A DNA stretch of 64,000 nt, taken from assembly GCA_000004985.1 (NCBI GenBank), contig GG738850.1. The stretch is one strand, 5' to 3'. This DNA is from Naegleria gruberi (Eukaryota). Position 1 is the first letter of the stretch. Each line of letters starts with the position of its first letter. Positions 18,707 to 59,800 of the stretch are shown here, in pieces. The notes below the pieces were generated by a model. The model searched no databases, was not told the origin of the DNA, and saw only the letters and a list, made by a program, of their open reading frames with translations. The position numbers and the translations under genes were made by a program.

Positions 18707-21700
18707 ATGTTGTCACTTCTTCCAACTGAAGCAGCCAGTAGTAATACTCATCATCATCACCTTCATCATACTCAATCATCTTTGGAAATAAGGGAAGACG
18801 ATTATTCTATTCATTCCGATTATGATCCTCTTTCAACCGGAAGGGAATCATTTGTAAATAACATCAACAATATTGAGGAAGAAATTGGAGAATCCTTAGA
18901 CACTATCAGTAGTAACAGTGGTAGTGAGGAATTATTCTTTGGAATGGAACCAACCTCAACACAGAATAATCAGCATCATCATGATCCTTCTAGTCATGGA
19001 TCGTTTCCAGCTGATGTTGAGGAGGAAATTGAAGTATTGCCGGGGGAGGAGGATGACGATGATTCAGATAAAGATTTGAATTCGTCTGAAGAAAGAGGAA
19101 GGAGATCAAATATGAGAATCAAAACACATGACATGAATTATTCAGTAGATGATTACTTCAAATCATTAAATGGCAAGCTTCCTTCTCCAACATCACTTCC
19201 GAATCTAAACGATACAATTGAGGAATCTCTTGCTAGTGATGATTCCAATGAAAATACTCCAAAGAAAGCAACATCATCAATTATATACAAGAAGAGATTT
19301 CCAGTGCCAATTTCTGAACCAGTCTTTTCTCCTCGAAAGGATCGTCTTCTCAAACATTGTTCAACTTTCTACTTTCATCCAGAAACAGCTCAATGTTCCC
19401 ATGATTCCCAGCTCGTTTCACCAAAGGAGTACTCTTCATTCCTCTCTCGTCATTCAGATTTCAACTCTTCACCGAGTAGTTATAACATCAATAGTCCCCA
19501 ACAGCAACAATCAGCTGCTCTAATCACACACAGTAGTGTCTACACAACTTGGAGTGACGGTAGCAATAGCATCGGGAGCTTTAAAACCAACTCTGCCACT
19601 ACTGCAATGAACAACACTACAGTGAAAGACTCAACGATCGAACCATCAGAGGAAAACCCCAACCGAACAATTTCTCATCTTCCTTCAGTGAGCCTTTCCA
19701 ATGTTAAGAACCTCACGGAACGACAAAAAAATTTACTATACTCTATAAAGGTTGCTAAGGTTGTTAAGGAGAGTAATCATCACTCGACCACTAACAACAA
19801 TTGTAACAAGGACCTTAATCATCAACATCATCATTCTCAACAATCAACGGTTAATAGTAATAGTGAAAAGTCTCCTGTTACCGTATCAAAAAAATTAGGT
19901 TTATCAGAATTTACAGTTGCTAATAATAATAATAGCAACAATAAGAATCCATCATCAAATTATCGCATTAAGGAGGAAATTCTAGCACAATTATCATCTC
20001 CTTTGAAGAGGAAGTTGAAAAAGGAGGATATATTTGATTCTACTGTGCAACCATTAACATCATTTAGAAGTGACGAAGGAAGAGAAGTATCTGCTGTTGA
20101 GGAGTGGATTGCCTTTCAAAAGCAGAGAATTACTGAGGACGATAATATTGAGGATACAACTGGAGAAGGAATTTTTGAATTTACACAAGTGAAGGATTCA
20201 TCATTGCGAACATCAACAATTATTGGAGAGGACGAGCAAGAAAACAACAACATGACTAGTAATTCACTGAGTCCCCCATTTCACTTGATCAAGAGGAGTT
20301 CCAACAAGACAATGCAATTAATTTCATCAGATATTCCTATTGTACATAATGCTTCATCTACTGCCTTGTTTGCTAACATTCCACCAATCTTGAAACCACT
20401 TCAACTCTCACAGGCTAGTTCGGCCCAATTAGAAAAGAAACAACATCAAGTGGTGAGGAATTCCATTCAACAATTTCGTTCAAATAAGCATGCTCTCCAC
20501 ACTGTTCCGAAACCAACAGTTTCAAAGAGTCAAATTGTTCCACCAAGTGCCAAAACATCAGCACGACCCATGGTGGCACAACCATCCCCCAATCTAGTAA
20601 TACCAAATCAGCACGTCGAAGATGTTAAACCAGTGAGAAGAAAGAATGTACCTGTAATTAATGTTCCTCAAATTAAGATTACCGAAAAGATGCAAACCTA
20701 TGCTTCGTTGCATCAACTCAAATCACCATCGAATCACAAACAACAAGATTATGAACTGGCAGCTGATTCAGTATTTGTCGTCGTGTCTGGTGATGTTCTC
20801 AATGAAATTCGAGAAAAGAATGAAAAAGTTGAGAGAAAGAGACCTTACGAGATTATATACTTTGATAAGAGTTTATCAAGAGTGAAACAAGTTGTTCCAT
20901 GTGGATCATTTACAATTTTTGTTGCGGAAGGTAAAGAAACTGAAAGAGTGTTTGTAATATATAAGGAAAACCCACTCCTTCATCCAACCAAAAAGGTTGA
21001 AAATGTATATAACAAGTACTTTACCTTTTGCAATTCAAATTTTCATCCACAACTGAGAGAAGTTGACTACAAAACTCTTATCAGGACTGAGTTTGAGAAG
21101 AATAACGTAAATCTAGATCCATATGTATTGCAAGATCCAAAAAGTTTGGAATTGACTGAGGTTTATGGAACACAAGATGCATTCATGCTCAAAATGAGGA
21201 ATAATTTCTGTATCTTTATACATTTTGCAGAAACTGCGGAAAAGGTTAAAATATCCTTCTTTGAAGAGTATGCAGGAGGAACCATTGATTGGATTGAAAC
21301 AAATCCCTGCTCCAATACCTTACTCTTGTACGGTCACGCAAGAGGGAGAACCAATTACCTGTTGGATATAATGGTATTGGATCCAGAGCCGAGGAGAAGA
21401 AAGTTGCAACTTCCACCAGAAATATCTCAAAACAATATAAGGATTATTCGAGTAGGATTACACAGAATTATTATAGTGACCAATGACAATCAATTGTACA
21501 TACATAGAAGCGAGAAGAAAGGATCTGAAACATCTGAAAATTTTGAACTGTTTGATAAGGTTTGGGAAGCTCCTATCAGGCAAGTGAGATGTGGAGGCTA
21601 TCACAATGTGGTTCTGCTCCAGAATGGTAATATTTATGCGTGGGGTTTCAATAACCACTACCAATGTGGAATTTATGAAAATGTTAAAAACAAGATCCCT

Positions 21701-22051
21701 ATGGTACCTATCACTCTCTTAAATCAACCCAAGACGATGGATGGAGAAATAACAGATATTCAAGCATCTTATCTCACTACGAGTGTGATAACAACAAATG
21801 GAGTGTGGACAATAGGAGACATGACCGCAAAATTGAATACCTATGTCAAATCAACAGATGGTTTAAAGTATAGCATCATTCCATTTGCCAAGTTTAACTT
21901 TTTACTGAATGCCATGTGGAGCTCGGGAGACCATCTTGTCTTGTTCAATCACAGTGAAAATCATGAAGGTATACAGGGCTACTTCTCTAAGAATTTGAGT
22001 AAGATGCTACACATCGAATCTAGTCAAGATGAAAAGAGTAAAAGACAATGA
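18707..22051 (+). CDS. Large low-complexity protein (1114 aa) with C-terminal RCC1-like repeats
   Basis: Real ATG. His/Ser/Asn/Gln-rich N-terminal two thirds. The C-terminus has RCC1-type repeat sequence CGGYHNVVLLQNGNIYAWGFNNHYQCG. Confidence 0.5.
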   Translation: MLSLLPTEAASSNTHHHHLHHTQSSLEIREDDYSIHSDYDPLSTGRESFVNNINNIEEEIGESLDTISSNSGSEELFFGMEPTSTQNNQHHHDPSSHGSFPADVEEEIEVLPGEEDDDDSDKDLNSSEERGRRSNMRIKTHDMNYSVDDYFKSLNGKLPSPTSLPNLNDTIEESLASDDSNENTPKKATSSIIYKKRFPVPISEPVFSPRKDRLLKHCSTFYFHPETAQCSHDSQLVSPKEYSSFLSRHSDFNSSPSSYNINSPQQQQSAALITHSSVYTTWSDGSNSIGSFKTNSATTAMNNTTVKDSTIEPSEENPNRTISHLPSVSLSNVKNLTERQKNLLYSIKVAKVVKESNHHSTTNNNCNKDLNHQHHHSQQSTVNSNSEKSPVTVSKKLGLSEFTVANNNNSNNKNPSSNYRIKEEILAQLSSPLKRKLKKEDIFDSTVQPLTSFRSDEGREVSAVEEWIAFQKQRITEDDNIEDTTGEGIFEFTQVKDSSLRTSTIIGEDEQENNNMTSNSLSPPFHLIKRSSNKTMQLISSDIPIVHNASSTALFANIPPILKPLQLSQASSAQLEKKQHQVVRNSIQQFRSNKHALHTVPKPTVSKSQIVPPSAKTSARPMVAQPSPNLVIPNQHVEDVKPVRRKNVPVINVPQIKITEKMQTYASLHQLKSPSNHKQQDYELAADSVFVVVSGDVLNEIREKNEKVERKRPYEIIYFDKSLSRVKQVVPCGSFTIFVAEGKETERVFVIYKENPLLHPTKKVENVYNKYFTFCNSNFHPQLREVDYKTLIRTEFEKNNVNLDPYVLQDPKSLELTEVYGTQDAFMLKMRNNFCIFIHFAETAEKVKISFFEEYAGGTIDWIETNPCSNTLLLYGHARGRTNYLLDIMVLDPEPRRRKLQLPPEISQNNIRIIRVGLHRIIIVTNDNQLYIHRSEKKGSETSENFELFDKVWEAPIRQVRCGGYHNVVLLQNGNIYAWGFNNHYQCGIYENVKNKIPMVPITLLNQPKTMDGEITDIQASYLTTSVITTNGVWTIGDMTAKLNTYVKSTDGLKYSIIPFAKFNFLLNAMWSSGDHLVLFNHSENHEGIQGYFSKNLSKMLHIESSQDEKSKRQ

Positions 22052-26519: not shown

Positions 26520-28283
26520 TTACAAATCATACATGACAACATCTTCATCTTCATCAACTTCTCTAGTAACAAAGGAAATATCGGAAAAGTAATTCTTATT
26601 GCTTTCATCTTGATCATAGAGTGCTTGGTAGAGGTGGCAGAACATTTCATTCTGATTTCTACTTCTCTTTTCCTTCGAAAAGAGATAGATACTACATGTT
26701 CTAAATCCTGCCGAAACACAATAATCTAGTTGTGGATATTGCTTCAATTTTGCAGATAGGAACGTTTCATGTTGTGGTTTGATATTGTATACTGGCTGAT
26801 CTTTGGTAGTTAACTGTTTGCAAGAATTATTTCCACACACGTAGACATCTCTAGATTCAGAAACAGCAATCATTGAGTAGAAACCAACAATTTCCTTGAT
26901 TGATTTTCCACTAAGGAAATCACATTGAATGAATCCCTCAGTGACATAGTTTGCATTTCCATTCACATATTGTTCATCTAAGAAGAGAGCTCTATCATTG
27001 GCAGTTCCACAAACATAGACCTTATCATCTCTTGTTTGAATGAAGGTTGATAAACTTCCACACCATACATTGGTGATATACTTGTGTGGCACAATCTGCT
27101 TTGAATCTTTCAAGGATTCAGTGGATGTTCTCTGATTATTACTGTAGAATGGTTCGAGTGGAGCAAAAACTGGATACTTTTTACCAATGGCATTGAATTG
27201 ATTGTCACCAGCAGCATACACAATTCCATCTTCAGTTAAAAAGAGTGAATGATGACTTCCTGCAACAATTTTAACAATCTTGAGTCCTTTTCCACCATCA
27301 TTACTCAATCCACCTTCTTTCAGAACAGTGACAGGTCTGAATCCACTTGAAACATTGACATGATTAGGCACACATCCTATTTGATTTTGTACATTTCTTC
27401 CACAGGCATAGACTATACCAGTCTCTGTCAAGACAAGTGTATGATAATATCCACAGGCAATTTCCTTAATTTTCTCACCTCCAAATGTCGAGGAAGGAAT
27501 GAGTTTTGGCACTGGTTCTCCAACACTCTTTTCAATACCAAGTTGACCATCTCCATTCTTACCAAACACTACAATTTCACCAGTGGACATTAACACAACA
27601 GTGTGGCCTTCTCCACTGACCAATTTCTTGACAAAGTAGCTTGGAGTAAGAGGAAGTTTTGGTAAGGCAACCGCCTCCACATGATCTCTTACTTCATTGG
27701 AATGACCAACACCTAATTCACCCACAGAATTGGAACCAGTTGCATAAAGTCCAGTCTTGGTCAAGTAAAATGTGACATTGTAACCACAGTCAATTGAAAT
27801 GAGTTCCTTAGGATCACATGGAAAGAGTGTATTATTCGATTTGCAATTATTCATTTGAGCTGCATCTGAGAATGGAATTGAACTATTTGAAGAATTGGAA
27901 GGGGAAGTTGCCACTGGCTTTGGTCTCTTTGATTCAATATCTGTCTTGACATGTTCTACTAAATCCTTAGGAGAAATCCAACCAGTACAATTCATTGAAG
28001 GAACACTATATCTACTTGTAGAACCACTGATAAATATTCTATCAGGCAATTGTTCCAATGTTGTGGTTGAGCAGGGAAGTTGTTGAGAATAATTGTGATA
28101 ATCATTTGAGGAGCTACATCCCTCTGCAAAACTAATCAAACTTCTCAATCCATATTTCAATGAGAAGGAATCACGATAGGAAAGTTTGGCATAGTCCAAA
28201 TCTTGAGAAGAGGAAGCACCACTCGATCTTCTCTGATAATTATATGATGATGAAGGCGAAGTTTTATCAAAATCTTGACTCAT
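26520..28283 (-). CDS. RCC1-repeat (regulator of chromosome condensation-like beta-propeller) protein, 587 aa
   Basis: Real ATG. Multiple RCC1 blades (GYYHTLVLTETGIVYACGRN, GSHHSLFLTEDGIVYAAGDNQFN, GEGHTVVLMSTGEIVVFGKNGDGQLG). Confidence 0.75.
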   Translation of the reverse strand: MSQDFDKTSPSSSYNYQRRSSGASSSQDLDYAKLSYRDSFSLKYGLRSLISFAEGCSSSNDYHNYSQQLPCSTTTLEQLPDRIFISGSTSRYSVPSMNCTGWISPKDLVEHVKTDIESKRPKPVATSPSNSSNSSIPFSDAAQMNNCKSNNTLFPCDPKELISIDCGYNVTFYLTKTGLYATGSNSVGELGVGHSNEVRDHVEAVALPKLPLTPSYFVKKLVSGEGHTVVLMSTGEIVVFGKNGDGQLGIEKSVGEPVPKLIPSSTFGGEKIKEIACGYYHTLVLTETGIVYACGRNVQNQIGCVPNHVNVSSGFRPVTVLKEGGLSNDGGKGLKIVKIVAGSHHSLFLTEDGIVYAAGDNQFNAIGKKYPVFAPLEPFYSNNQRTSTESLKDSKQIVPHKYITNVWCGSLSTFIQTRDDKVYVCGTANDRALFLDEQYVNGNANYVTEGFIQCDFLSGKSIKEIVGFYSMIAVSESRDVYVCGNNSCKQLTTKDQPVYNIKPQHETFLSAKLKQYPQLDYCVSAGFRTCSIYLFSKEKRSRNQNEMFCHLYQALYDQDESNKNYFSDISFVTREVDEDEDVVMYDL

Positions 28284-29243: not shown

Positions 29244-32200
29244 TTAACAAATGAAATTCTTAAAGAAATTGGCTAATTCCTCAGCAAGTGGTCGATCTTC
29301 TGGTTCTTTTGATAACATTCTCATGATAATATCAATGATGTCCTCTCTGATACCTGTGTCTTTCAATTCCTTTCTAATTCTATCAAACACCTTTTCTTCA
29401 CCTTCTCCAAGCAATTGTTGTGTAATTGATGCTTGATTCAAACACTTAAACTTGTCACAAATAATTAAATATAAAGTCACACCAAATGAAAATATATCTG
29501 TTGGATAAGAAGTTTGCTTTCCCAAATATAATTCAGGTGAAACATAATAAAGCGTTCCTGTGAAAGTGTGAGCTGTAGCTGCTTGTTTTGAAACACCAAA
29601 ATCTCCAATGGCAACTGAAATCTTTGAGCTTTCTTCATCAAATTCATCAACCATGATATTATTTGCCTTGATGTCACGATGAATGACTTTTTGATTTCTA
29701 TGTAAATAATCAAGACCTTCACCCACTTGATTAATGATTGAAATTAGTAATTGATCAGAAGGAGGTTTTCCATGTTTAAACAAATGATCCAAATCTCCAC
29801 ATTTGTAATATTTCATTGCAAGACAAATGACTTTTTGCTCACTGGCTTGTAAATATTCATAGGATCTTACAAGATTTGGATGTTGGAAGGACAGACATTT
29901 GGAGAATTCACTGCAAATTGCCATGAAATTGTCTTGTGTGGCTGAAATTGCCTTTACAGCAATCAAATCATTCGTATTGACATCAGCGCACAAATAACAT
30001 ATACCAAATCCACCTCTTCCCAATTCCTTTATAATCTTGTAAGTGTGATCCTTTGAGGAGAAGGTATTGTCATCGTTCTTACTAGATTGTTCGCTACCCT
30101 TACTTGATACAATCGTTGGAGGAGGCATGAATGAATTGTCTTGATTCTGATTCAAAAATGCAGTATACGAAAGCTCTGTATTTTGCATAGAAGATCCATT
30201 ATTACTACTGGTTTGTGTTGACCCGCTCTTTTCATTACTAAGGTAATTGGTATATGAAGGCATTGATGAAAATGTTGATAATTGGCCTTGATTCATAGTA
30301 TTTTCAGAACCGTTACTTGTAAAAGTGACAGTGATTAGCTCTTGATTTTGATTCAACTTGATAGCTTGCTCTTTCTTAGATTGTTCCTCCTTAATCTTTA
30401 CCTGTTCTTCCTTTAATCTTGCTTCTTCTTTCGCCTTTCGTTCCATTTCTTCCTGCTTCCTTGCCTTCTCCTCCCTTAATCTGACTTCATCCTTAATCTT
30501 TCTTTCTTCTTCATCCCTCTTTCTTCTTTCTTTATATTCAAACTCCACATCTTTTCTTATTTTTTCTCTTCGTTTTTCTTCCTCATTCTTTTCTTTTCTT
30601 TCTTCCTGATACTTGGCAAACCTCTTTCTGTACATTGAATTTCCAATATACGCGACAGGAACAAAACAAATAATGATAATGGTCAAAAGACTAAAACCTC
30701 CAATCACCCCACCAATGATAGCAGTCATTTGATTTGATGTACTTTCACCAATAACAGTATCACAATATTGGCCACTGGTGCTAGAATTTCTGCAGGAACA
30801 GATGTTGTTTCCTAGACATTTACCACCACCACTACAAACTGTTGGATCATCTGGAGCTAGGCCTTTACAAGTGAATGTATAATTGCAAAATATGCCAACA
30901 TAACCAACAGTACATGAACACTTATCTTGAGAGAGGCAGGAACCATGGCCAGAGCAAACATTTGCATCCACTGGAATCAATCCACCACAAGTATAATTAT
31001 ATTGACACATGTTTCCAGCATAACCTTGATTACATTTACAGGTGTTGTAAGAAGTGCAATCTCCTTTTCCTGAACAAACACTGGTGTCTTCTGCACTTTT
31101 TTCATAGCAAACCGGTTTACCAATTGATTTGCAAATATTTCCAAATAGAAAGAAACCATTCTCATAATCACAGTATGGTTCAAGAACTCGTATCAAGTAG
31201 TGTTCTGAATCGGTAAAGTATAATTTACCATTTTCACCAACAGTTAGCCCATATGGCTCACCAAGCGTAGCCACAGTGGCATCTGATTGATCTCCATTAA
31301 ATTCAAAATTTGAATTTGCACCACAGCGTCCAGCAATTGTTGAAATAGTTCCATTAACGTCAATCCTTCTAATACAATGATTTCCACTATCTGTGAAATA
31401 AATGAAGGATCCATAATATAAAACATTGGATGGTGAGTTAACTTGAGAAGCATCAACTAAAACACTTGCAACACCATCTTCAATTTGAACAATACGATTA
31501 TTACCCGTATCAGCAATCAAATACTTTGTGTCAGAATAGAAATATAAACCCCTAGGTTCTCTAACTTGCATTGCAAAATTATAGGAAGGATCAGTAACAT
31601 AAAACGTTGCAGAAACATTCATTAAGGTCCCAACAATGGTCACAATTTTGGCTGCATTTAAATTTTGCATATTTCTAATATTTTGCCATTCAGAGTAGTA
31701 CAAATTACTGCCAACCATTGCCAATTTCTTTGGGCTACTCAATTGAGTTGGTAAAGTATTATCAGGACTGCTTGTGTCCATTCCATTGCCAGCAAGAGTT
31801 GAAACAACCCCACTTGTGTACTTTCTAATTCTATTATTCTTGGTGTCTGCAATGTAATAAACTCCTCCCTTAGCTACCCAGACATCACTCGGACTGTCGA
31901 ACAATGCTTCATTTCCATCTCTGAATCCAGACTCCCTATAACTTCCAACCACTAACAACCATCAGCACCATCAAGCAATTATTTAAATTAAGAGTTCCTG
32001 TCTAAATCAAACACATACCAATCTCCACTTCATTCTTTGCCAAATTACATTTACTAATAACATGTCCTTGTTCCTCAGCAAAATACAAAGAACCCGAATA
32101 ATAGAACAATCCTCTGGGTGTGCTAACATATCTTGGAGCATTACAAATTGTTGTTAGTTTATATTTTACATTAGCTATATCATCTGCAATACAAAAATCC

Positions 32201-32286
32201 ATCACCATGACGGCGACGAGGGATATGACAATAAGGAAGGAAAAAATTGCCTTACTGTTTGTGTGGGAGGATCTTGGCGTCCTCAT
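29244..32286 (-). CDS. Receptor-like Ser/Thr protein kinase: signal peptide, NHL-repeat beta-propeller, 3 EGF-like modules, TM, ER/K-rich single alpha helix, S/T/N-rich linker, kinase domain. Two exons, approximately 32286..32019 and 31952..29244.
   Basis: Real ATG at 32286 (MRTPRSSHTNSKAIFSFLIVISLVAVMVMDFCIA). 66-nt intron GTATGT...GTTGTTAG joining EIG|VVGSY in phase. NHL-like repeats (YIADTKNNRIRKY, LIADTGNNRIVQI, YFTDSGNHCIRRI, YFTDSEHYLIRVL). EGF-like Cys patterns (CSGKGDCTSYNTCKCNQGYAGNMCQ x3). TM IIGGVIGGFSLLTIIIICFVPVAYIG. A ~90-aa E/R/K block. Kinase motifs GRGGFGICY, VAVK-like AVKAI, HRDIKANNIMV, DFGVSK, SPE. Confidence 0.75.
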
Positions 32287-32957: not shown

Positions 32958-34241
32958 TTATTCTAAACCTGAAATAATGTACTGAATCTTATCAATCTTA
33001 TTCTGATATTCCTCTTGCATTTTGTTTGACCTATCAAAAAATACCTGTTTCTCATCATTACTCATCCTGTTCCAACAATTTGCAACGATCGTTGCTTGGT
33101 TTGATAATGAAATATTTGGATTTTCTGACACCACCTCCATTCTTTTCTGTTGAGAGAACAACATGTATGGAGAGGGAACTCTTTTCACTGTACGCTTCTT
33201 AAAGAATAGCAAGATTGAGGGCAAGAGTCCACACAGAACCTCTTCAAATGTTTTCCTCTCTGCAGAGGTACTACATGGAGGAAGGAAGATGGAAACTCTG
33301 CTTGAGGTGCTGAAGGAATTATCAATGACATTGAATAGAAATGTGCTTCCCAGACAAACTATTGTGTGAATAGATGAGAGAATGTAAGGTAAACCAGAAT
33401 CATGGAAGATTACAATTCTTCCCGAGTTAATTTTGATGGAATTGGTTAATAATTTGGAAAATTTCAATTTTTTCAAAATGGAATTCAATTTTTCAATTTG
33501 TGATCGAGTTAAAGGTTCCAATAATTTTTCAATAATTTCAAAAAGTGGTACTGTATCAGATGAATTGGTGTGTGGGAAATGGGTTCTCCTTTCCATTAGT
33601 GCAGTAAGTATCAGAAACTTTCGATGAAAATTATTCTTCCAGAGCAGATTAGTTTTGATTCTAATTTCATTTTCAAAACATTTCACACAACTTAGTGCCT
33701 CTAAAGGTTTAACCTCCTCAATACCTTTTTTCCATTGCTCAACATCATTTTCAATAGTTTGTGAAAAATTAAATTTCATCGAGTCAAGCTCTTCAAATTC
33801 ATGACCATTTACATCATTGATGAAAGGAGTAGAAACACAAAACGAATGTTCGAAATAAAACTTGGCAAATTCTGTACCAGATATAAACCGATACCAACCC
33901 TTACAAACCATCATCAAACAAGCACAACTGTTACAATAATTCGGATGAAAAACTTCCATCGGTCTTAAATAGAGGAAAATATTTGCCAATATTAAATCTT
34001 GATCAAACCATTCGCAAGTTATTGTTATTTGATTAGCATTATCAACTTTCTGAAAATCATCATGTTGATCATGATCGGAAGAATTGCCCAAGTTTCGAAT
34101 AATTTCCTTCGTATTTTCACGTTGTTTGGAAATAAAGTTTTGATGAGAGGTGATTTGCTTCTTGTCAAGTGGTTTCGGTAATTGATTCGTAATTTGCTTG
34201 AGAGAATGTGGATGGATTTGGTGGCGATGATTTTGTGACAT
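32958..34241 (-). CDS. HMG-box DNA-binding protein (SOX/MATA-HMG-like box at the C-terminus), ~427 aa
   Basis: C-terminal box KRVPSPYMLFSQQKRMEVVSENPNISLSNQATIVANCWNRMSNDEKQVFFDRSNKMQEEYQ fits the HMG-box consensus (KRP.NAFMLF...R......P.....IS..LG..W..LS..EK.PY...A). The first real ATG is a few codons inside the track ORF. Confidence 0.7.
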   Translation of the reverse strand: MSQNHRHQIHPHSLKQITNQLPKPLDKKQITSHQNFISKQRENTKEIIRNLGNSSDHDQHDDFQKVDNANQITITCEWFDQDLILANIFLYLRPMEVFHPNYCNSCACLMMVCKGWYRFISGTEFAKFYFEHSFCVSTPFINDVNGHEFEELDSMKFNFSQTIENDVEQWKKGIEEVKPLEALSCVKCFENEIRIKTNLLWKNNFHRKFLILTALMERRTHFPHTNSSDTVPLFEIIEKLLEPLTRSQIEKLNSILKKLKFSKLLTNSIKINSGRIVIFHDSGLPYILSSIHTIVCLGSTFLFNVIDNSFSTSSRVSIFLPPCSTSAERKTFEEVLCGLLPSILLFFKKRTVKRVPSPYMLFSQQKRMEVVSENPNISLSNQATIVANCWNRMSNDEKQVFFDRSNKMQEEYQNKIDKIQYIISGLE

Positions 34242-35059
34242 ATTTTTCAACTTTAAATATTCTATTTTCTGATTACAACGATTGAATTTCCATGAAACTC
34301 TTGACTATTATCGCATTGTTAGTGATAGGTTTCCATTGGAATAGTTTCGTTTCTCATTGAACCAGTTACAACATTTTTCAAATTGATTTACAAATTAATG
34401 ATAAACTTTTGGTTCTATTAAAAAGTTTCGAATAAGGTAAATGAGATGGAACTCTTGTAACTCTCCCTTAAAGAAATTTAAAGTTTCGTTCAACCTAATT
34501 GAACTGTACTTCTTGAATGTAAACTTCCAGAATTGAATTCAAATATCAAACGTTCATTTTCTGAACGATTACTTGATCTGCTTAAGGATAAAGCCATACT
34601 ATTTATTTCCTTCTTTCGTCTCTTTTATTAGAAATGGTATTGATGTAAGAAGGTAATTACTCTTAAAAACCTGCAATTTTACACGTTTTTTCATTTAATA
34701 AAAAAGTGCATTTCCTATTCGAAAGGGTTTCCATCTCTGTTCATTTAGACATTTATTGTAAAATTCCAGAATTATGAACCGAAACTTTTAAAGTAAGGAA
34801 GAAAGGAAAAAGACGAAACTCCTCTCGAATTGAACGTTCTAACGAGGTACTTTTTTATACTTCTTTCTTATTGGGACCCCCTGAAATTATCTATCATTCC
34901 AAATGGATCTAATTAGGTTTGTGTGTTTCAACATCTTTTTTCTAAATTGATCCAAACTTCATTCGTTTCGTTTCGAATATTAAAAACTTTCGTTTTAAAT
35001 ATAAACAGACTTTGAATTAAAAAAAGAGAACAAACAGCCACCGTTTCGTGTTTTTAGAA

Positions 35060-45384: not shown

Positions 45385-47091
45385 TTAGTTTCCTTTACAA
45401 TTTTCCATGAGCAAATGCATGATGTGAGAGGCTGTATAGAATCGAATGCACATCAGAAGAAACATGGCAAGAGGTCGAGTAATGAAGAGTTTTACATTGT
45501 CCTTCCATTGAATCATGGCTTGTTCCTTCTTTCTCTGTTTTTGCACGTATTTGCCTCGTTCTGGATTTGAACTACTATAATGGATGGTAATATTGTTTGT
45601 GAGAATATAGGAACGAACAATGTCGAATAATTCCACAGATGAAATTAAGAGTGAAATGTTCAATATTAAAAATCCAATCACGTGTAATGCTTCCTCTCCC
45701 AAAAAGCTCTTTAGAGATGAATTGGCAATCCATAGACAGATAGAAACCATTGGAATTATATCTAAAACAGTGAAGAGAAATCTTGTGGATAAAATGTCAT
45801 CTGTTAAATCATTCAAATCATTCCACCAAGATTCATTACAAATATTCTCGAATCGAACCATGAATTCTTCTCGAATTCCATTATGCACACAAATTTCTCG
45901 GACCATTCTCTTCACTTGAGTTCTCATTAATATGTGATAGTAATAAATAAAGTAGGATCTTGCGTATCTAAAGTGCCCAATAAGAGCCCTTGCATGTTGA
46001 CTAATAATTGGATCAAATGTTGGAATTTTGTCCTGAATGGGTGTTGTAAACAAGTTATTGCAAACACTGTCAATTCTAGAAATATCCCTCGATCCCTTAT
46101 AAATCCAATACAGCATTGAGAATAAATAAAAGTGACCTGAAATTGAGCTCAATGTAAAAGTGACGCCCATTGTTACACAAAACAGAAAAAGCAAAGTCAT
46201 GGATTCTAAAACTTGATTGGGAAACAATAGAAATACAATGATGGCTATTAGGGTGATAATGTACAACCCGTACAATGTCTTGATGAGCAAATCTTGAATA
46301 ATCAGATTGGAAGTTGATAATCCCCACCTTCTATCGAGTTCAAACTTTGATGAATAGCTCTGAAATTGAACTAAATTCTTCATAAAGTTTCTGAATGCAC
46401 AATACAATTTCTCATTGTCCTTTTCATCATTTTTACAATTTCGAGCCAAATCAATTACTGATCTCCAATAACTATCAAATACCTCCACATACACCAACTT
46501 GTATGGATTCTTCTTTACATTATTCAAATAATTCAATAGCAAACTATCAATACAAGTATTCAATAAATCAGCTTGCTCTTCAGAGTCTACCCTCGTTATC
46601 GTGGACGTTGAACAATTGGCAATACAACTGCCAAATATCTGTTCGTCTGCCTTTATCAAACTCAAATCATTCACTTTACCCTTCTCAGTTGTGACATGTT
46701 TCAAAATGACTTGTCTAATATACAATTGATTATTTACAGAATGGAGAAGCATATTAGCCAAAAGTCCCTGATCAATGAACAATCTCTCCACAGCCAAATA
46801 TCGGAAATGTTTACAACTCATTGAAACTTTAATCAATGAAGCAATGTCATTGGAAAGGAATGCAAAGATGTAACACAATTCATCATCGGCCAATCCTTGC
46901 TCTCCATCATCATCATCTGCTCTTCTCCCCACAGAGAATTGTTTATAAACAAGCAATTGAGCAGTTGAATGACTCGAATAGCCTTCCGATGCAAGGGAAG
47001 AGTCATTGTCTAACACCACTTCATAAGGCTTGTGATGATCATCATTTGGTTGTTGTTCTTTGTCTTCGAGAATCATCTCAACTACTGCCAT
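45385..47091 (-). CDS. Hypothetical membrane protein (~568 aa) with an F-box-like motif and 2-3 TM segments
   Basis: F-box-like LADDELCYIFAFLSNDIASLIKVSMSCKHFRYLA. Hydrophobic segments LYIITLIAIIVFLLF and LLFLFCVTMGVTFTLSSI. The first real ATG is at ~47091; the track start is a TTG. Confidence 0.4.
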   Translation of the reverse strand: MAVVEMILEDKEQQPNDDHHKPYEVVLDNDSSLASEGYSSHSTAQLLVYKQFSVGRRADDDDGEQGLADDELCYIFAFLSNDIASLIKVSMSCKHFRYLAVERLFIDQGLLANMLLHSVNNQLYIRQVILKHVTTEKGKVNDLSLIKADEQIFGSCIANCSTSTITRVDSEEQADLLNTCIDSLLLNYLNNVKKNPYKLVYVEVFDSYWRSVIDLARNCKNDEKDNEKLYCAFRNFMKNLVQFQSYSSKFELDRRWGLSTSNLIIQDLLIKTLYGLYIITLIAIIVFLLFPNQVLESMTLLFLFCVTMGVTFTLSSISGHFYLFSMLYWIYKGSRDISRIDSVCNNLFTTPIQDKIPTFDPIISQHARALIGHFRYARSYFIYYYHILMRTQVKRMVREICVHNGIREEFMVRFENICNESWWNDLNDLTDDILSTRFLFTVLDIIPMVSICLWIANSSLKSFLGEEALHVIGFLILNISLLISSVELFDIVRSYILTNNITIHYSSSNPERGKYVQKQRKKEQAMIQWKDNVKLFITRPLAMFLLMCIRFYTASHIMHLLMENCKGN

Positions 47092-47857
47092 GGATCCTTC
47101 TTTCAATTATAATAAAAGAAGTTGTAGTATCTCGCTACAAGTAACTAGCGGTGAAATACTAAAGGAGTATGTTGTATTTCTTTTGATTTTGATTAATCAC
47201 GAGAATAGGCTTTTATGGCTCCAAGCAAGATGATCTGGTGATAATAATTATTGTGGAGGACTTCATCATTGTGCGACGTTAAAATCCCTCTCAATCCGTT
47301 CGTTAGGACTTTTTTTTTCAAATTATTAAAAATATTAATATTTCGAATTAAAATTCAAAAAAACAATGGCATGATGAGAAAGCATCTGCCATGTCTCGAT
47401 ACCATTGATCTTTGTTTTTGATGGAATTGTGTAGGAATTAATTTTTGGTCATGATGAACAAGTGAACTTTATTTCAAAAGCAAAAAATGTCATCAACAAG
47501 TTTATTTCTACCACAAGATGTGATCGGAGAGGTTTTTAAATTTCTAGAATTGAAAGATAAATTGGTGTGAGTACTCTTTGAAGAAAAACATATTCAAACC
47601 GAACATGTTTTCCATGTAAATTCAAATAATGATCATGATCATGATGATGGAATTTTAGTTTATCACTTGTTTCGGAGGATTGTAATAGAGCATCACTGAA
47701 TGAAAAATCATTTTGGAGAGCAGAATGTTTAAAACAAGTGGAAATCTTTCAAAGAAACTATTATATTGGTATGATTATTAGTTTAATTTTACAATAATTA
47801 TTTACAATATATTAAATAGCCTATCCAAACAAGAAGAGACCTAATCTGAAAGAGACA

Positions 47858-56882: not shown

Positions 56883-59800
56883 TTAGAAACTTAATTTATC
56901 TCTTAATTGAATGAGTTGTTTGGAAATATCGGAAAATTCTGGTCTATTACTTGGATCCATATCCCAACACTGTTGCATGAGTTTCGTATAATCTTCAGTG
57001 ACCGATTTGAGTACTGAAAATGGAGCGCTAGTTTCTTGTCCATACACATTCATCCACTCATGCAACTCCTCGTCATTTCTAAATGGTATAATTGGTCTTT
57101 CATTATTTAAAACTTTCATTGGAACTGTATATGGTTGATCTTCACAAGTTGCCTTTCTGAAATGGTGAATTTTAGAGCTAGCTGCATTCAGATATGGATT
57201 TTCCAAAAAGTATAATTCATACATGACAATTCCAAATGAGTAGACATCAACTTTGTGTGTAATCTTTGTAGATGATCCCTGTAGACCTTCATTTCCAATA
57301 TAAAACAAAGTTCCAACATTGACAGTCATTGAAGTTTGTAATTGATTGTTTCCAATGATTTTGACCAAACCAAAATCACACACCTTACAATTATTGGATT
57401 CATCCAAAAGAATATTAGCTGGTTTCAAATCTCTGTGAATCACTGAGGGTTGAAGGGAGTGTAAATAATTCATTCCATTACTCACTCCAATTAAAATATT
57501 AATCTTTTCCTTCAATGATAAAAATTCAATATTTTGCTTGCATTTGTAAATAATCTTGTCCAAGCTTCCCTTCTTTACAAACTCTGTAATCATATACTTT
57601 GAGGTCTCGGTAATACAGACACCATAGAATGAGACAATATTTGGATGTCTGAGTCTTGAAAGAATGGCAGCTTCCTTTTCAAATTCAAAACTTCCTTCTG
57701 CAGTTTTCAATGATTTAATGGCAACTTCAGTATTGACCCAGAGTCCTTTATAGACATTTCCGTAACCTCCCTCACCAATACGTTTGGTAATTTCAATATC
57801 CTGAACTGGAATAACTACAGAACTTTTAACTGTGTTTTGGTTCATGTGATCGTTTTCCAAAAGTGGAGAATCATAATCTGAATTATGTTTTGATTTGTAA
57901 TAACTTGTTGATCTTGAATGAGTATAATTTGTTTCACTATCACTCATTTCAAAGACAATTTTGTTGTCTAAAATTGTTTTTTCCAAATTCTTTTCTGCAT
58001 TTTCCTTCCTTTTAAGTAATCTTAATTTGGAAATAATTTTAGAAGTGCAATAGAATATTAAAAATCCCAAAATAGTTCCACCCAACAACATGAGAATACC
58101 CACAGGCACTGTGATTGAAATAATGAGAGTTTCCAAATCAATTACATTTTTGCAAACAAAAATTTGTTGTTCATTAACAAATTCTGCAACCATTCGTAAT
58201 GGCATTGGACAAGGCAGCAATGTAATATTAAAATTGGTAGTTACCAACGATTCTGAGATTATTTTCACATTGGCAGTTGTGTTTTCATAGATTGCCTTTG
58301 TGAAATAGACACTTGCAATAAATCGCTTATTTCCAGCAATGGATGAATTAATTTGTAAATAGTCTGAAATTATTTTGAAATTCTCAGATTGGAGTGGTAA
58401 TTCTAAACCCAGGTTTCCCAAAAATCCCATTTCTATTGTAATATTCTGTCCAGATTCCACAGAAGGGCTCACATAGTCAATTGTTAAATTTCTGCCAATT
58501 GATGAAAAGTCATCTCCAAACATGGAAGCTCTATTACCTCTGAATGTATTACCTGGTCCAATTATACTATTATTTACACTTGATACTAAAATTGATTGTT
58601 CAAAAAAGTAGAAGGCACCTCCTGTCATATTTGCAAAATTGTCAATCAGTGTGAAATCTTTAAATAAGTATGGAGATCTATTCCAATACGTGAAATACCC
58701 TACACACAAAGCTCCTCCTCTAATAGCTCTATTTCCAATAAACTCAGCTCCCCCATAAGATCCAGGACCATGTCCAATAGAATGGATGGTTAGAGCTCCA
58801 CCACAACCCAGCAACATTCCAGCGATTGCATTTCCAACCTCTCTCTTGATATAATTTCCAATAAATTTGGTATTTTCAAATTGGGTTACCAACATGTCTT
58901 GACGAATGAATAAGGCACCTCCAGATTGTAAAGATAAATTTTCCTTAAATAGGCAATTAATAAATTTCATGATAAAGCTATTGGTTAAGAAAATAGCACC
59001 ACCAAAAGTATTAGCTCCATTTCTAATAAAAGTTGAATTGGCAATAAAACTTTCAGTAAAATAGGCGTTTTCTATCGAATATTACAAAATTAGAAATATT
59101 TTAGAAATGAACTTACCTGAAAACGAAGCAATACTAATTGCACCACCAAAAGCAATAGCACGATTGTCTGCGAATGTGCAATTATCCATATTTAGTGAAA
59201 CAATATCACGGAATCCCAAAACTCCTCCTTCATTACCAATATTTCTATAAAACTCACTGTGATTAATAATAGTTTCAGAAACGGATGTAATCTCAACCAC
59301 ACTCTTAACATTCTTATAAGTGTCCAATACATTACAATCAAATATCGTTGTATATTCTATCATTAAATTTAGTATAGCTCCCAATTGTGCAAACAAATCC
59401 AAATTCTGAGCTACACAATTTGTAATTTTAACCTTATCAACAAATTCCACAGCAAGTGCAGGTAAGTAATATTTTGAAATTTGAAACTTGGTGTTAGAAA
59501 ATAGAGTTGAATCAGCTTTTGTGATTACAATATTCGATCCAATACAAATCGAGTCCTTAATCTCCAATGTCTTTAATCCAACAGCTCTAAAAGATAAAAA
59601 ATCAAAGTAGGTTTCGGATACCTCAACATGTCCACAATTTGCAAAGGTAAAAGTAAATCCAATTGCACCTACAAAGACAACATTCTTAAATTTGACAGTT
59701 TTCACATTTGAAAAATCCAAACTGTAAGCTTCTTTAGTACAGTAGACTTCTTCGAATATGACATCTCCAGAGGAAAAGTTGTAAACTTGATAATTAGCTA

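What the first reader, a model, noticed from the sequence alone, without database searches (positions are those of the whole stretch)
29244..32286. Receptor kinase with an NHL beta-propeller + triple-EGF ectodomain and an ER/K single-alpha-helix spacer before the kinase
The deduced architecture is signal peptide, ~4-5 NHL repeats, three EGF-like Cys modules, a TM helix, ~90 residues of near-pure E/R/K (KEKNEEEKRREKIRKDVEFEYKERRKRDEEERKIKDEVRLREEKARKQEEMERKAKEEARLKEE), an S/T/N linker and a Ser/Thr kinase. An NHL-EGF ectodomain fused to a kinase is not a described receptor class. The ER/K block looks like a rigid single alpha helix, which would hold the kinase a fixed distance from the membrane.
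Basis: partly seen in the sequence, partly recalled or inferred. Interest (0 to 1): 0.65.

Follow-up and report, generated by a model that had tools for sequence, protein, structure and literature searches.

The report
Naegleria NHL-EGF receptor-like Ser/Thr kinase
This is a real, already annotated but unstudied gene of the amoeba Naegleria gruberi encoding a single-pass membrane kinase with a propeller-plus-EGF outer part; it belongs to a small Naegleria gene family, and only this copy has the long charged helix.

Summary
On the minus strand, 32286..29244, two exons and a 67-nt GTATGT..TAG intron encode 991 aa. This is identical to N. gruberi XP_002681451.1 (NAEGRDRAFT_63212, "predicted protein").

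The parts, in order:
- signal peptide
- six-bladed NHL beta-propeller (not 4-5 blades)
- Cys hairpin plus three 6-Cys EGF modules
- one TM helix
- a ~96-100-residue ER/K helix
- a ~90-residue disordered S/T/N/Q linker
- a Ser/Thr kinase with all catalytic residues present

Pfam, two AlphaFold models and a fold search support each part. NHL blade 2 through the kinase lies in one 904-codon ORF, so it is one gene.

NHL-EGF-TM-kinase is a family: at least five N. gruberi members, one in N. lovaniensis, plus metagenomic ones. An unrelated TKL kinase carries the same ectodomain in another protist. Bacterial PknD already pairs an NHL propeller sensor with a kinase.

The ER/K block has a genuine single-alpha-helix charge pattern. 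However, none of ten relatives has it, including the 73%-identical paralog, and a floppy linker follows it. It cannot hold the kinase at a fixed distance.

Verdict: an uncharacterised lineage-specific receptor-like kinase, a new variant of a known kind, of moderate interest.

The parts
29244..32286 (-). Whole coding region of the gene (N. gruberi NAEGRDRAFT_63212, XP_002681451.1), 991 codons plus the TAA stop
   Evidence: Splice model. Exact match to the public protein. Coordinates verified.
32019..32286 (-). Exon 1 (residues 1-89 and the first base of codon 90)
31952..32018 (-). Intron, 67 nt, GTATGT...TTGTTAG, phase 1
   Evidence: The annotated protein requires the same splice.
29244..31951 (-). 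Exon 2. It lies within a single uninterrupted 904-codon ORF that runs from NHL blade 2 to the end of the kinase.
   Evidence: ORF 29244..31958.
32185..32286 (-). Signal peptide region, residues 1 to about 34: a basic N-terminus followed by the hydrophobic core AIFSFLIVISLVAVMVM
   Evidence: Hydropathy peak of KD 2.59. The cleavage site is inferred, not predicted with a dedicated tool.
31176..32169 (-). Six-bladed NHL beta-propeller, residues about 40-348; this span includes the intron
   Evidence: Pfam NHL E=1e-13. PDB sequence hits to teneurin-like protein, SOQ1, NHLRC2, Pizza6 and PknD. About 30% identity across the whole propeller to many NHL proteins. AlphaFold gives six blades at pLDDT above 90. 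Foldseek E=6e-19.
30762..31172 (-). Cys hairpin (C350, C363) and three 6-Cys EGF-like modules: residues 371-405, 411-445 and 451-486
   Evidence: Pfam EGF_2 with three stretches, E=6e-10, plus weaker teneurin/Jagged EGF models. Spacing C-x10-C-x5-C-x5-C-x-C-x8/9-C. AlphaFold pLDDT 75-90.
30639..30728 (-). Single transmembrane helix, residues 498-527, followed by basic residues (RKR), which fits an N-out/C-in orientation
   Evidence: Hydropathy peak of KD 2.56, the only internal one.
30342..30635 (-). ER/K charged helix, residues 529-626; predicted as one continuous alpha-helix, about 14-15 nm long if it is straight
   Evidence: Composition and heptad test. Charge-pattern test against shuffles. 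AlphaFold helix 527-626 at pLDDT 84-96 and 529-624 at pLDDT 88-97. No DNA tandem repeat beneath it.
30060..30341 (-). Disordered S/T/N/Q-rich linker, residues 627-720. It carries short motifs shared with the paralog: SYTxYL, QNTELSY, DNSFxPPPTI.
   Evidence: 56% S/T/N/Q. pLDDT 29-46. Motif conservation in the alignment.
29271..30041 (-). Protein kinase domain, residues 727-983, of Ser/Thr type (HRDIKANN, DFG, SPE)
   Evidence: Pfam Pkinase E=7e-49. Catalytic K, E, HRD, N, DFG, E and R are invariant in alignment A2. AlphaFold pLDDT 85-98. The nearest solved kinases are SNRK, CDPK, MARK and TAO.

Best explanation
The gene encodes a type I, single-pass, receptor-like Ser/Thr kinase of Naegleria gruberi.

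Shown:
- Outside the cell, a six-bladed NHL beta-propeller sits on a short stalk of three EGF modules.
- One TM helix crosses the membrane.
- Inside, there is a ~96-100-residue ER/K helix, then a ~90-residue disordered linker, then a kinase domain with all catalytic residues intact.
- The kinase belongs to a Naegleria-specific subfamily. Most of its members are also single-pass transmembrane proteins, and several carry NHL-EGF ectodomains.

Inferred:
- The propeller is the ligand- or surface-binding module.
- Binding clusters or reorients receptors, so that the kinase domains trans-phosphorylate their activation loops (TFTGT) and linker sites, and then signal downstream.
- The ER/K segment behaves as a semi-rigid single alpha-helix. 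It moves the start of the flexible tether about 14 nm from the membrane, which enlarges the kinase's reach rather than fixing its position.
- It arose recently by expansion of a short charged juxtamembrane stretch that the paralog also has.
For: - Gene model: identical to the public annotation. NHL blade 2 through the kinase is one ORF.
- Domains: Pfam scores are above the curated cutoffs for NHL, EGF_2 and Pkinase.
- Structure: AlphaFold gives a six-bladed propeller, EGFs, a long helix, a disordered linker and a folded kinase. Foldseek matches NHL propellers.
- Topology: there are only two hydrophobic segments, and basic residues follow the TM. Five N-x-S/T sequons and 25 Cys lie in the N-terminal part.
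- Catalytic residues are all present and invariant in the family alignment.
- Family: in a full-library HMMER search, the nearest kinases are TM proteins with NHL and/or teneurin-type EGF ectodomains from N. gruberi, N. lovaniensis and metagenomes.
- ER/K block: 68% charged, no Pro or Gly, best heptad a/d hydrophobic occupancy 22% (33% if Ala is counted), and i/i+4 opposite-charge pairs twice the shuffle expectation.
Against: - There are no transcript, protein, localisation or activity data.
- No ligand is known.
- The signal-peptide cleavage site and the membrane orientation are inferred from simple rules.
- AlphaFold cannot tell a monomeric single alpha-helix from one strand of a coiled coil.
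- The ER/K block is missing from all relatives, so it may be functionally neutral.
- Activation by clustering is an analogy with other single-pass receptor kinases. It was not tested.
Confidence: 0.72

Rival explanations
1. The ER/K block is a neutral low-complexity expansion, a purine-rich GAA/AAG/AGA coding tract in an AT-rich genome. It has no spacing function, and the receptor works like its paralogs that lack the block.
For: The block is absent from all ten relatives. The 73%-identical paralog P0153 and the N. lovaniensis homolog P0154 have only about 35 charged residues at that position. The coding strand is a polypurine tract with weak low-complexity repeats. The disordered linker that follows would blur any ruler effect.
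Against: The charge arrangement is far from random given its composition: 0 of 5000 shuffles reach the observed number of E->K/R i+4 pairs, and like-charge pairs are depleted. There is no recent tandem duplication. The frame is kept open for about 100 codons.
Confidence: 0.4
2. The ER/K segment is a coiled coil. It holds the receptor as a constitutive dimer or oligomer, as in pre-formed receptor dimers, rather than acting as a monomeric spacer.
For: It is a long uninterrupted helix adjacent to the membrane. Receptor kinases often signal as dimers (general knowledge).
Against: The best heptad register has only 22% LIVMFYW at the a/d positions (33% if Ala is counted). A recalled tropomyosin segment gives 56%, and a recalled myosin VI ER/K helix gives 14%. 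Attractive i/i+3-4 ion pairs are dense, at 0.70 per residue.
Confidence: 0.1
3. The protein is mainly an adhesion or prey-recognition molecule of the large Naegleria NHL-EGF-TM surface family. In this reading the kinase is a regulatory add-on that tunes adhesion or phagocytosis, and the protein is not a receptor for a soluble ligand.
For: The closest ectodomain relatives are Naegleria NHL-EGF-TM proteins with short tails and no kinase: P0005, P0017, P0022 and P0026, at about 30% identity across the NHL and EGF regions. The propeller of PknD binds host matrix and mediates adhesion (PMC3322341).
Against: The kinase is intact and its subfamily is conserved across several ectodomain types. That argues that signalling is the selected function. 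Adhesion and signalling are also not mutually exclusive.
Confidence: 0.3
4. The single gene is an annotation artefact, and the NHL/EGF part and the kinase are separate genes.
For: No transcript data were available here.
Against: One 904-codon ORF with no stop spans blade 2 to the kinase C-terminus, in DNA of about 35% G+C. The same order, ectodomain then TM then linker then kinase, recurs in at least six independent genes from three sources. The TM lies between the two halves, as a receptor requires.
Confidence: 0.03

Closest known systems
Naegleria NHL-EGF-TM-kinase paralogs and orthologs (all uncharacterised): N. gruberi XP_002674840.1 and XP_002676275.1, N. lovaniensis XP_044549156.1; also N. 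gruberi XP_002674300.1 and XP_002678153.1, which have NHL, TM and kinase but no Pfam EGF hit
   Same: Same kinase subfamily, at 73%, 42%, 58%, 33% and 32% identity. Same order of NHL propeller(s), teneurin-type EGFs where present, one TM, an S/T-rich linker and a C-terminal kinase.
   Different: They have different numbers of NHL blades and EGF modules. None has the ~95-residue ER/K helix; their juxtamembrane segments are short basic or charged stretches.
Mycobacterium tuberculosis PknD (receptor Ser/Thr kinase with a six-bladed NHL beta-propeller sensor; PDB 1RWI/1RWL)
   Same: An extracellular six-bladed NHL propeller is coupled through one TM helix to a Hanks-type Ser/Thr kinase (PDB hit; PMC3322341).
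   Different: PknD is bacterial and has the opposite polarity: kinase at the N-terminus inside, propeller at the C-terminus outside. It has no EGF stalk and no ER/K helix. The sensor similarity is weak (E=0.005). There is no evidence of common descent of the fusion.
Teneurins and the 'teneurin-like protein' (PDB 9ifo/9pt5)
   Same: These are the best solved-structure sequence match to the ectodomain (E=1.6e-21; Foldseek E=9e-19). Teneurin-type EGF and NHL Pfam models hit weakly. In both, the EGF modules lie nearer the membrane and the NHL propeller lies further out.
   Different: Teneurins are type II proteins with eight EGFs, a YD-repeat shell and a toxin-like C-terminus, and they have no kinase. 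None of those extra parts is present here.
NHL-EGF-TM-TKL kinase of an uncultured protist (P0016, assembly GCA_041825655.1)
   Same: Multiple NHL propellers, four teneurin-type EGFs, one TM and a C-terminal kinase. The ectodomain is 31% identical across the NHL and EGF regions.
   Different: Its kinase is a TKL of the Raf/CTR1/EDR1 type, closest to amoebozoan and plant kinases. It is only 26% identical to the window kinase over 175 residues. This is an independent fusion.
ER/K single alpha-helices (myosin VI, myosin X, caldesmon and similar proteins)
   Same: High E/K/R content, i to i+4 opposite-charge pairing, no hydrophobic seam and no Pro or Gly.
   Different: The block is less purely charged (68% against about 84% in a myosin VI ER/K sequence recalled from memory). 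It is juxtamembrane in a receptor kinase, a location I could not find described. Its monomeric state is untested.

Membership tests
Eukaryotic protein kinase superfamily, active Ser/Thr kinases | Match to the Pkinase profile above the curated cutoff | tested here: met
   167.1 bits against a cutoff of 31.7, over residues 727-983 and covering profile positions 1-258 of 263.
Eukaryotic protein kinase superfamily, active Ser/Thr kinases | Catalytic residues: Gly-rich loop, beta3 Lys, alphaC Glu, HRD Asp, catalytic Asn, DFG Asp, APE Glu, subdomain XI Arg. Also HRDxKxxN, which marks Ser/Thr rather than Tyr specificity. | tested here: met
   GRGGFG, AVK, E, HRDIKANN, DFG, SPE and DRP are all present. 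K, E, H-R-D, K, N, D-x-G, E, D and R are invariant across 31 sequences.
Eukaryotic protein kinase superfamily, active Ser/Thr kinases | Phosphotransfer activity | not testable with these tools
   Needs a recombinant kinase assay.
NHL-repeat six-bladed beta-propeller | NHL repeat profile above the cutoff, and six blades closing into a propeller | tested here: met
   NHL 50.8 bits against 20. Six four-stranded blades in the AlphaFold model, pLDDT mostly above 90. Foldseek probability 1.00 to the SOQ1, NHLRC2 and Pizza6 propellers, with TM-score normalised to the target of 0.71-0.84.
EGF-like domain | Six-cysteine spacing, and a profile match above the cutoff | tested here: met
   EGF_2 39.8 bits against 22.1, with three stretches. 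Three C-x10-C-x5-C-x5-C-x-C-x8/9-C units. Disulfide bonding itself was not tested.
ER/K single alpha-helix (SAH) | Long stretch rich in E, K and R with i to i+4 (and i+3) opposite-charge pairing, no helix breakers and no heptad hydrophobic seam | tested here: met
   94 residues, 68% charged, no Pro or Gly. There are 38 i+4 and 28 i+3 opposite-charge pairs; E->K/R at i+4 occurs 21 times against 10.5 +/- 2.2 in shuffles. The best a/d occupancy is 22-33%.
ER/K single alpha-helix (SAH) | Stable, monomeric, extended helix in solution | not testable with these tools
   AlphaFold predicts one helix in two runs, but that does not establish monomeric stability. CD, SAXS or AUC is needed.
Teneurins | Type II topology, eight EGFs, YD-repeat shell, FN-plug/TTR, toxin-like C-terminal domain | tested here: not met
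   The topology is type I: an N-terminal signal peptide with the TM at 498-527. There are only three EGFs and no YD/Rhs or Tox-GHH hits. Only the NHL and EGF modules are shared.
PknD-type bacterial receptor Ser/Thr kinases | N-terminal cytoplasmic kinase, one TM, C-terminal extracytoplasmic NHL propeller | tested here: not met
   The domain order is reversed here and EGF modules are interposed. It works alike but is not a member.
TKL-group receptor Ser/Thr kinases (plant RLK/Pelle, TGF-beta receptors) or receptor tyrosine kinases | Kinase domain groups with TKL or TK kinases | tested here: not met
   All 38 PDB hits at E<=1e-20 are CAMK-type (SNRK, MARK, CDPK) or STE20/TAO. Database neighbours outside Naegleria are labelled NEK-like, at about 29% identity. 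The HRDIKANN motif is of Ser/Thr type. This is a best-hit test, not a phylogeny.
Naegleria NHL-EGF-TM-kinase family (defined here) | Shared kinase subfamily, together with NHL propeller(s), teneurin-type EGFs and a single TM in the same order | tested here: met

The most novel reading that the evidence does not exclude
The ER/K segment is a functional, monomeric single alpha-helix acting as a natural intracellular 'stand-off'. It places the tethered kinase about 14 nm or more below the membrane, for example beyond the cortical actin or membrane-proximal layer. That would change which substrates this receptor reaches compared with its ER/K-less paralog. It would be a naturally occurring counterpart of the engineered ER/K linkers used to tune effective concentration, and, as far as my searches show, the first in a receptor kinase.
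Probability: 0.2. Interest if true: 0.6.

Novelty: new variant of a known kind. Interest (0 to 1): 0.4.

Why it matters
Receptor kinases outside animals and plants are poorly known. This gene shows that Naegleria, a member of the distant Discoba lineage, built its own single-pass receptor Ser/Thr kinases. It joined a teneurin-like NHL-EGF surface module to a lineage-specific kinase that is neither TKL nor TK.

Another protist made the same ectodomain fusion with a TKL kinase, and bacteria did something similar in PknD. Pairing an NHL propeller sensor with a kinase therefore looks like a recurrent solution.

The window gene and its paralog XP_002674840 differ mainly by a ~60-residue ER/K insertion. 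They offer a natural experiment on what a rigid juxtamembrane helix does to receptor-kinase signalling. The family may also matter for prey or host recognition in Naegleria, but that is speculation.

Tried and rejected
- **Homolog searches with the full protein and the kinase.** Neither returned the gene's own database entry. An exact look-up showed why: its 90% cluster is represented by a 68-aa fragment. My early suspicion that the organism was not Naegleria was therefore wrong.
- **phmmer of the ectodomain against the hits.** The result broke into 1011 repeat-sized pieces and was useless for an alignment. BLASTP segments were used instead.
- **DNA tandem and direct repeats under the ER/K block.** Only weak polypyrimidine matches appeared, so there is no evidence of a recent duplication.
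- **phmmer of the ER/K block against the PDB.** Nothing was significant. Composition correction removes such hits, so this says nothing either way.
- **Literature searches.** I searched for the locus tag and accessions, for Naegleria with NHL and kinase, for the Naegleria kinome and receptor kinases, for NHL/EGF receptor kinases in protists, for teneurin-like proteins in amoebae, and for charged single helices in receptors. Nothing relevant turned up. Two papers I opened were irrelevant. The 2010 N. gruberi genome paper was not in the searchable library, so I cannot say whether its supplements list these kinases.
- **The UniRef name "mitogen-activated protein kinase kinase".** I rejected it. 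The protein is a transmembrane receptor-like kinase whose nearest solved relatives are CAMK-type and TAO kinases.
- **Local paralog cluster.** Rejected. tblastn of the protein against the window finds only an unrelated kinase at 56883-58970, at 32% identity.
Full report
**Source and gene model**

The window is a Naegleria gruberi scaffold. Two neighbouring intron-less ORFs are exact matches to N. gruberi proteins on a 707,703-bp contig: 26520-28283 is XP_002681450 and 18707-22051 is XP_002681303.

The finding lies on the minus strand. An ATG at 32286 opens an 89-codon exon. A 67-nt intron (32018..31952, GTATGT...TTGTTAG) is the only canonical splice that keeps the frame open. Exon 2 then runs to a TAA at 29246-29244.

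The 991-aa product is identical to the public model XP_002681451.1 / EFC48707.1 / D2V333 (NAEGRDRAFT_63212). That entry is named only "predicted protein", and UniRef names it "mitogen-activated protein kinase kinase". The intron is 67 nt, not 66.

Exon 2 lies within one 904-codon ORF that already contains NHL blade 2 through the end of the kinase. The ectodomain and the kinase are therefore one gene at the level of the reading frame. No transcript data could be consulted.

**Domains**

Pfam scores exceed the curated cutoffs for three families:
- Pkinase: residues 727-983, 167 bits against 31.7
- NHL: 50.8 bits against 20
- EGF_2: three stretches, 39.8 bits against 22.1

Weaker hits go to teneurin-type NHL and EGF models.

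The ectodomain's best solved relatives by sequence are a "teneurin-like protein" (9ifo/9pt5, E=2e-21), SOQ1, NHLRC2, the designed Pizza propellers, teneurins and, weakly, the PknD sensor. BLASTP aligns residues about 55-348 end to end, at about 30% identity, with many six-bladed NHL propellers.

I ran AlphaFold on residues 31-640 with 24 homologous segments. The model has mean pLDDT 81. It shows six four-stranded blades, mostly above 90, so the count is six rather than "4-5". It also shows a Cys hairpin and three EGF modules at 75-90. Foldseek against the PDB returned only NHL propellers at the top: SOQ1, teneurin-like protein, NHLRC2, Pizza6, teneurins and TRIM71.

Each EGF has the spacing C-x10-C-x5-C-x5-C-x-C-x8/9-C.

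Hydropathy finds only two hydrophobic segments: the N-terminal signal sequence and residues 498-527. Basic residues follow the second one. This fits a type I orientation, but that orientation is inferred. The ectodomain has five N-glycosylation sequons.

**The ER/K block**

Residues 532-625 are 28% E, 22% K and 15% R. They contain no Pro or Gly and have a net charge of +6.

The arrangement is not just a matter of composition. E->K/R pairs at i+4 number 21, against 10.5 +/- 2.2 in 5000 shuffles, and none of the shuffles reached 21. Like-charge i+3/i+4 pairs number 25, against 41.5 +/- 4.7.

The best heptad register places LIVMFYW at only 22% of the a/d positions, or 33% if Ala is counted. For comparison, a tropomyosin segment gives 56% and a myosin VI ER/K helix gives 14%. 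Both comparison sequences were recalled from memory, so they serve as orientation only.

Two independent AlphaFold runs give a single unbroken helix. One spans residues 527-626 at pLDDT 84-96. The other spans 529-624 at pLDDT 88-97. At 1.5 Å per residue that is about 14-15 nm.

It is the only such block in ORFs of at least 100 aa in the window. No DNA tandem repeat underlies it. The sequence signature of an ER/K single alpha-helix is therefore present. Its monomeric stability cannot be tested here.

**What follows the helix**

Residues 626-715 have pLDDT 29-46 and are 56% S/T/N/Q. This is a flexible tether of about 90 residues.

The kinase domain models at pLDDT 85-98. Only the activation loop is uncertain. 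All catalytic residues are present and invariant in a 31-sequence alignment. HRDIKANN and GT..YVSPE indicate Ser/Thr specificity.

Because a floppy tether separates the helix from the kinase, the helix cannot "hold the kinase a fixed distance from the membrane". At most it offsets the tether's anchor point.

**Relatives**

The word-indexed searches missed the gene's own entry, because its cluster is represented by a 68-aa fragment.

A full HMMER scan of 1.84 billion representatives with the kinase domain found a distinct subfamily. I characterised its members with Pfam, by source names, by sequence and by BLASTP identity to the window kinase:

| Protein | Source | Kinase identity | Layout |
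|---|---|---|---|
| P0153 | N. gruberi XP_002674840 | 73% | NHL, EGF x4, TM, kinase |
| P0154 | N. lovaniensis XP_044549156 | 58% | signal peptide, six NHL, EGF x2, TM, kinase |
| P0121 / L002 | metagenome fragment | 61% | TM, S/T linker, kinase |
| P0162 | N. gruberi XP_002676275 | 42% | many NHL, EGF x3, TM, kinase |
| P0172 | metagenome | 36% | NHL, about ten EGF, TM, kinase |
| P0243 | N. gruberi XP_002674300 | 33% | NHL ... TM, kinase (no Pfam EGF hit) |
| P0253 | N. gruberi XP_002678153 | 32% | NHL ... TM, kinase (no Pfam EGF hit) |
| P0280 | source not looked up | 33% | teneurin-type EGFs ... TM, kinase |
| P0158 (cluster includes N. fowleri FDP41_008832) and P0169 | metagenomes | 40% and 37% | same kinase behind a Pfam-less ectodomain |

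All of these have one TM followed by a short basic or charged juxtamembrane stretch. None has a long ER/K block.

The alignment with P0153 and P0154 places a net insertion of about 55-60 residues in the window protein. It also shows linker motifs shared with P0153: SYTxYL, QNTELSY and DNSFxPPPTI.

The architecture is therefore a Naegleria gene family, and the ER/K helix is a private, recent feature of this one gene.

**Outside the family**

P0016 comes from an uncultured eukaryote (GCA_041825655.1, locus L001). It has about 14 NHL repeats, four teneurin-type EGFs and a TM. Its kinase is TKL, of the Raf/CTR1/EDR1 type, and is only 26% identical to the window kinase. This is an independent fusion of the same ectodomain module to a different kinase class.

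The window kinase's best solved relatives are CAMK-type (SNRK, CDPK, MARK) and TAO kinases, at E of about 1e-24 to 1e-21. Outside Naegleria its neighbours are about 29% identical and are labelled NEK-like. It is neither TKL nor TK. This rests on best hits, not on a tree.

M. tuberculosis PknD is an established receptor Ser/Thr kinase whose extracellular sensor is a six-bladed NHL propeller (1rwi hit; PMC3322341). Its polarity is the reverse of the protein described here.

Teneurins share the NHL and EGF modules, and they share the geometry of EGF near the membrane with NHL further out. However, they are type II proteins with a YD shell and no kinase.

**Likely mechanism**

Shown: the parts list, their order, the intact catalytic machinery and the family membership.

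Inferred: type I insertion; the propeller as the binding module; clustering-driven trans-autophosphorylation, as in other single-pass receptor kinases; and the ER/K helix as a semi-rigid extension that increases reach.

The main rival for the helix is a neutral low-complexity expansion, to which I give about 0.4. It is favoured by the block's absence from all relatives and by the purine-rich coding tract. It is disfavoured by the strongly non-random charge pattern. A coiled-coil dimer is unlikely given the lack of a hydrophobic seam. A gene-fusion artefact is very unlikely.

**Novelty and verdict**

No paper in the searchable library mentions the locus, its accessions or a Naegleria NHL kinase. 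None describes a juxtamembrane charged single helix in a receptor kinase either. The 2010 genome paper could not be searched.

The gene is already annotated, and automated pipelines can see its domains. What is undescribed is the family as a receptor class, and the ER/K-bearing member in particular.

I rate it a new variant of a known kind: a single-pass receptor Ser/Thr kinase with a propeller sensor. Interest is 0.4. It is solid and tidy, and mildly surprising for Discoba, but it opens no long-standing question.

The context genes show no functional clustering with it. They are an RCC1-like protein, an HMG-box protein, a subtilase, an RGS-like protein, a BTB protein, a P-type ATPase and a TKL-like kinase.

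Noticed in passing
window 29244-32286 (database entry D2V333): UniRef names this protein "mitogen-activated protein kinase kinase". The same name is given to the paralog D2VLP5 and to the N. lovaniensis homolog. This looks like an automated misnomer: these are transmembrane receptor-like kinases whose nearest solved relatives are CAMK-type and TAO kinases.
   Followed up: partly
window 29244-32286 (protein cluster): In the 90%-identity protein collection, the 991-aa N. gruberi protein sits in a cluster whose representative is a 68-aa ENA fragment (P0148). As a result, homology searches did not return the protein itself, which briefly suggested the wrong organism.
   Followed up: yes
window 30060-30341 (residues 627-720): The otherwise low-complexity linker contains short motifs conserved with the paralog P0153: SYT(N/S)YL, QNTELSY and DNSF(M/R)PPPTI. 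These are candidate docking or phosphorylation sites.
   Followed up: no
P0153 (N. gruberi XP_002674840.1): The public model of the closest paralog starts inside NHL blade 3 (MTTLAGDG...) and has no signal peptide. It is probably truncated at the N-terminus by a missed 5' exon.
   Followed up: no
L002:3-1245 (ENA metagenome ERZ4903137): This is a 61%-identical relative from an environmental sample. It has a TM, a short basic stretch and an S/T linker. An intron of about 80 nt interrupts the Gly-rich loop of the kinase, at a point where the N. gruberi gene has none.
   Followed up: partly
L001:3849-7961 (P0016, GCA_041825655.1): An intron-less 1370-aa gene from an uncultured eukaryote. It encodes about 14 NHL repeats, a mid-protein EGF, four teneurin-type EGFs, a TM and a Raf/CTR1-like TKL kinase. 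It is an independent NHL-EGF receptor kinase. Relatives in metagenomes (for example P0309) also pair EGF_TEN with this kinase.
   Followed up: partly
P0158/P0302 (N. fowleri FDP41_008832) and P0169: These have the same kinase subfamily behind a different ectodomain of about 300-400 residues that has no Pfam match. It may be a second, unrecognised sensor module in Naegleria receptor kinases.
   Followed up: no
P0300 (2251 aa; from the kinase search): A giant protein combining several Kelch propellers, an adenylate/guanylate cyclase domain and two kinase domains. Its organism was not determined.
   Followed up: no
window 56883-58970 (-): A second, unrelated protein kinase gene: a 695-aa ORF whose kinase domain (392-684) scores best with the PK_Tyr_Ser-Thr model. 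It is 32% identical to the target kinase. It has no recognisable N-terminal domain.
   Followed up: partly
window 26520-28283 (-) and 18707-22051 (+): Two RCC1-repeat proteins lie within about 10 kb of each other. The gene at 26520-28283 is the target's immediate downstream neighbour. An HMG-box protein gene (32958-34250, minus strand) is the upstream neighbour.
   Followed up: partly
window 187-4368 (+) and 45385-47106 (-): Two long ORFs, of 1393 aa and 573 aa, have no Pfam match at E<=1e-4.
   Followed up: no
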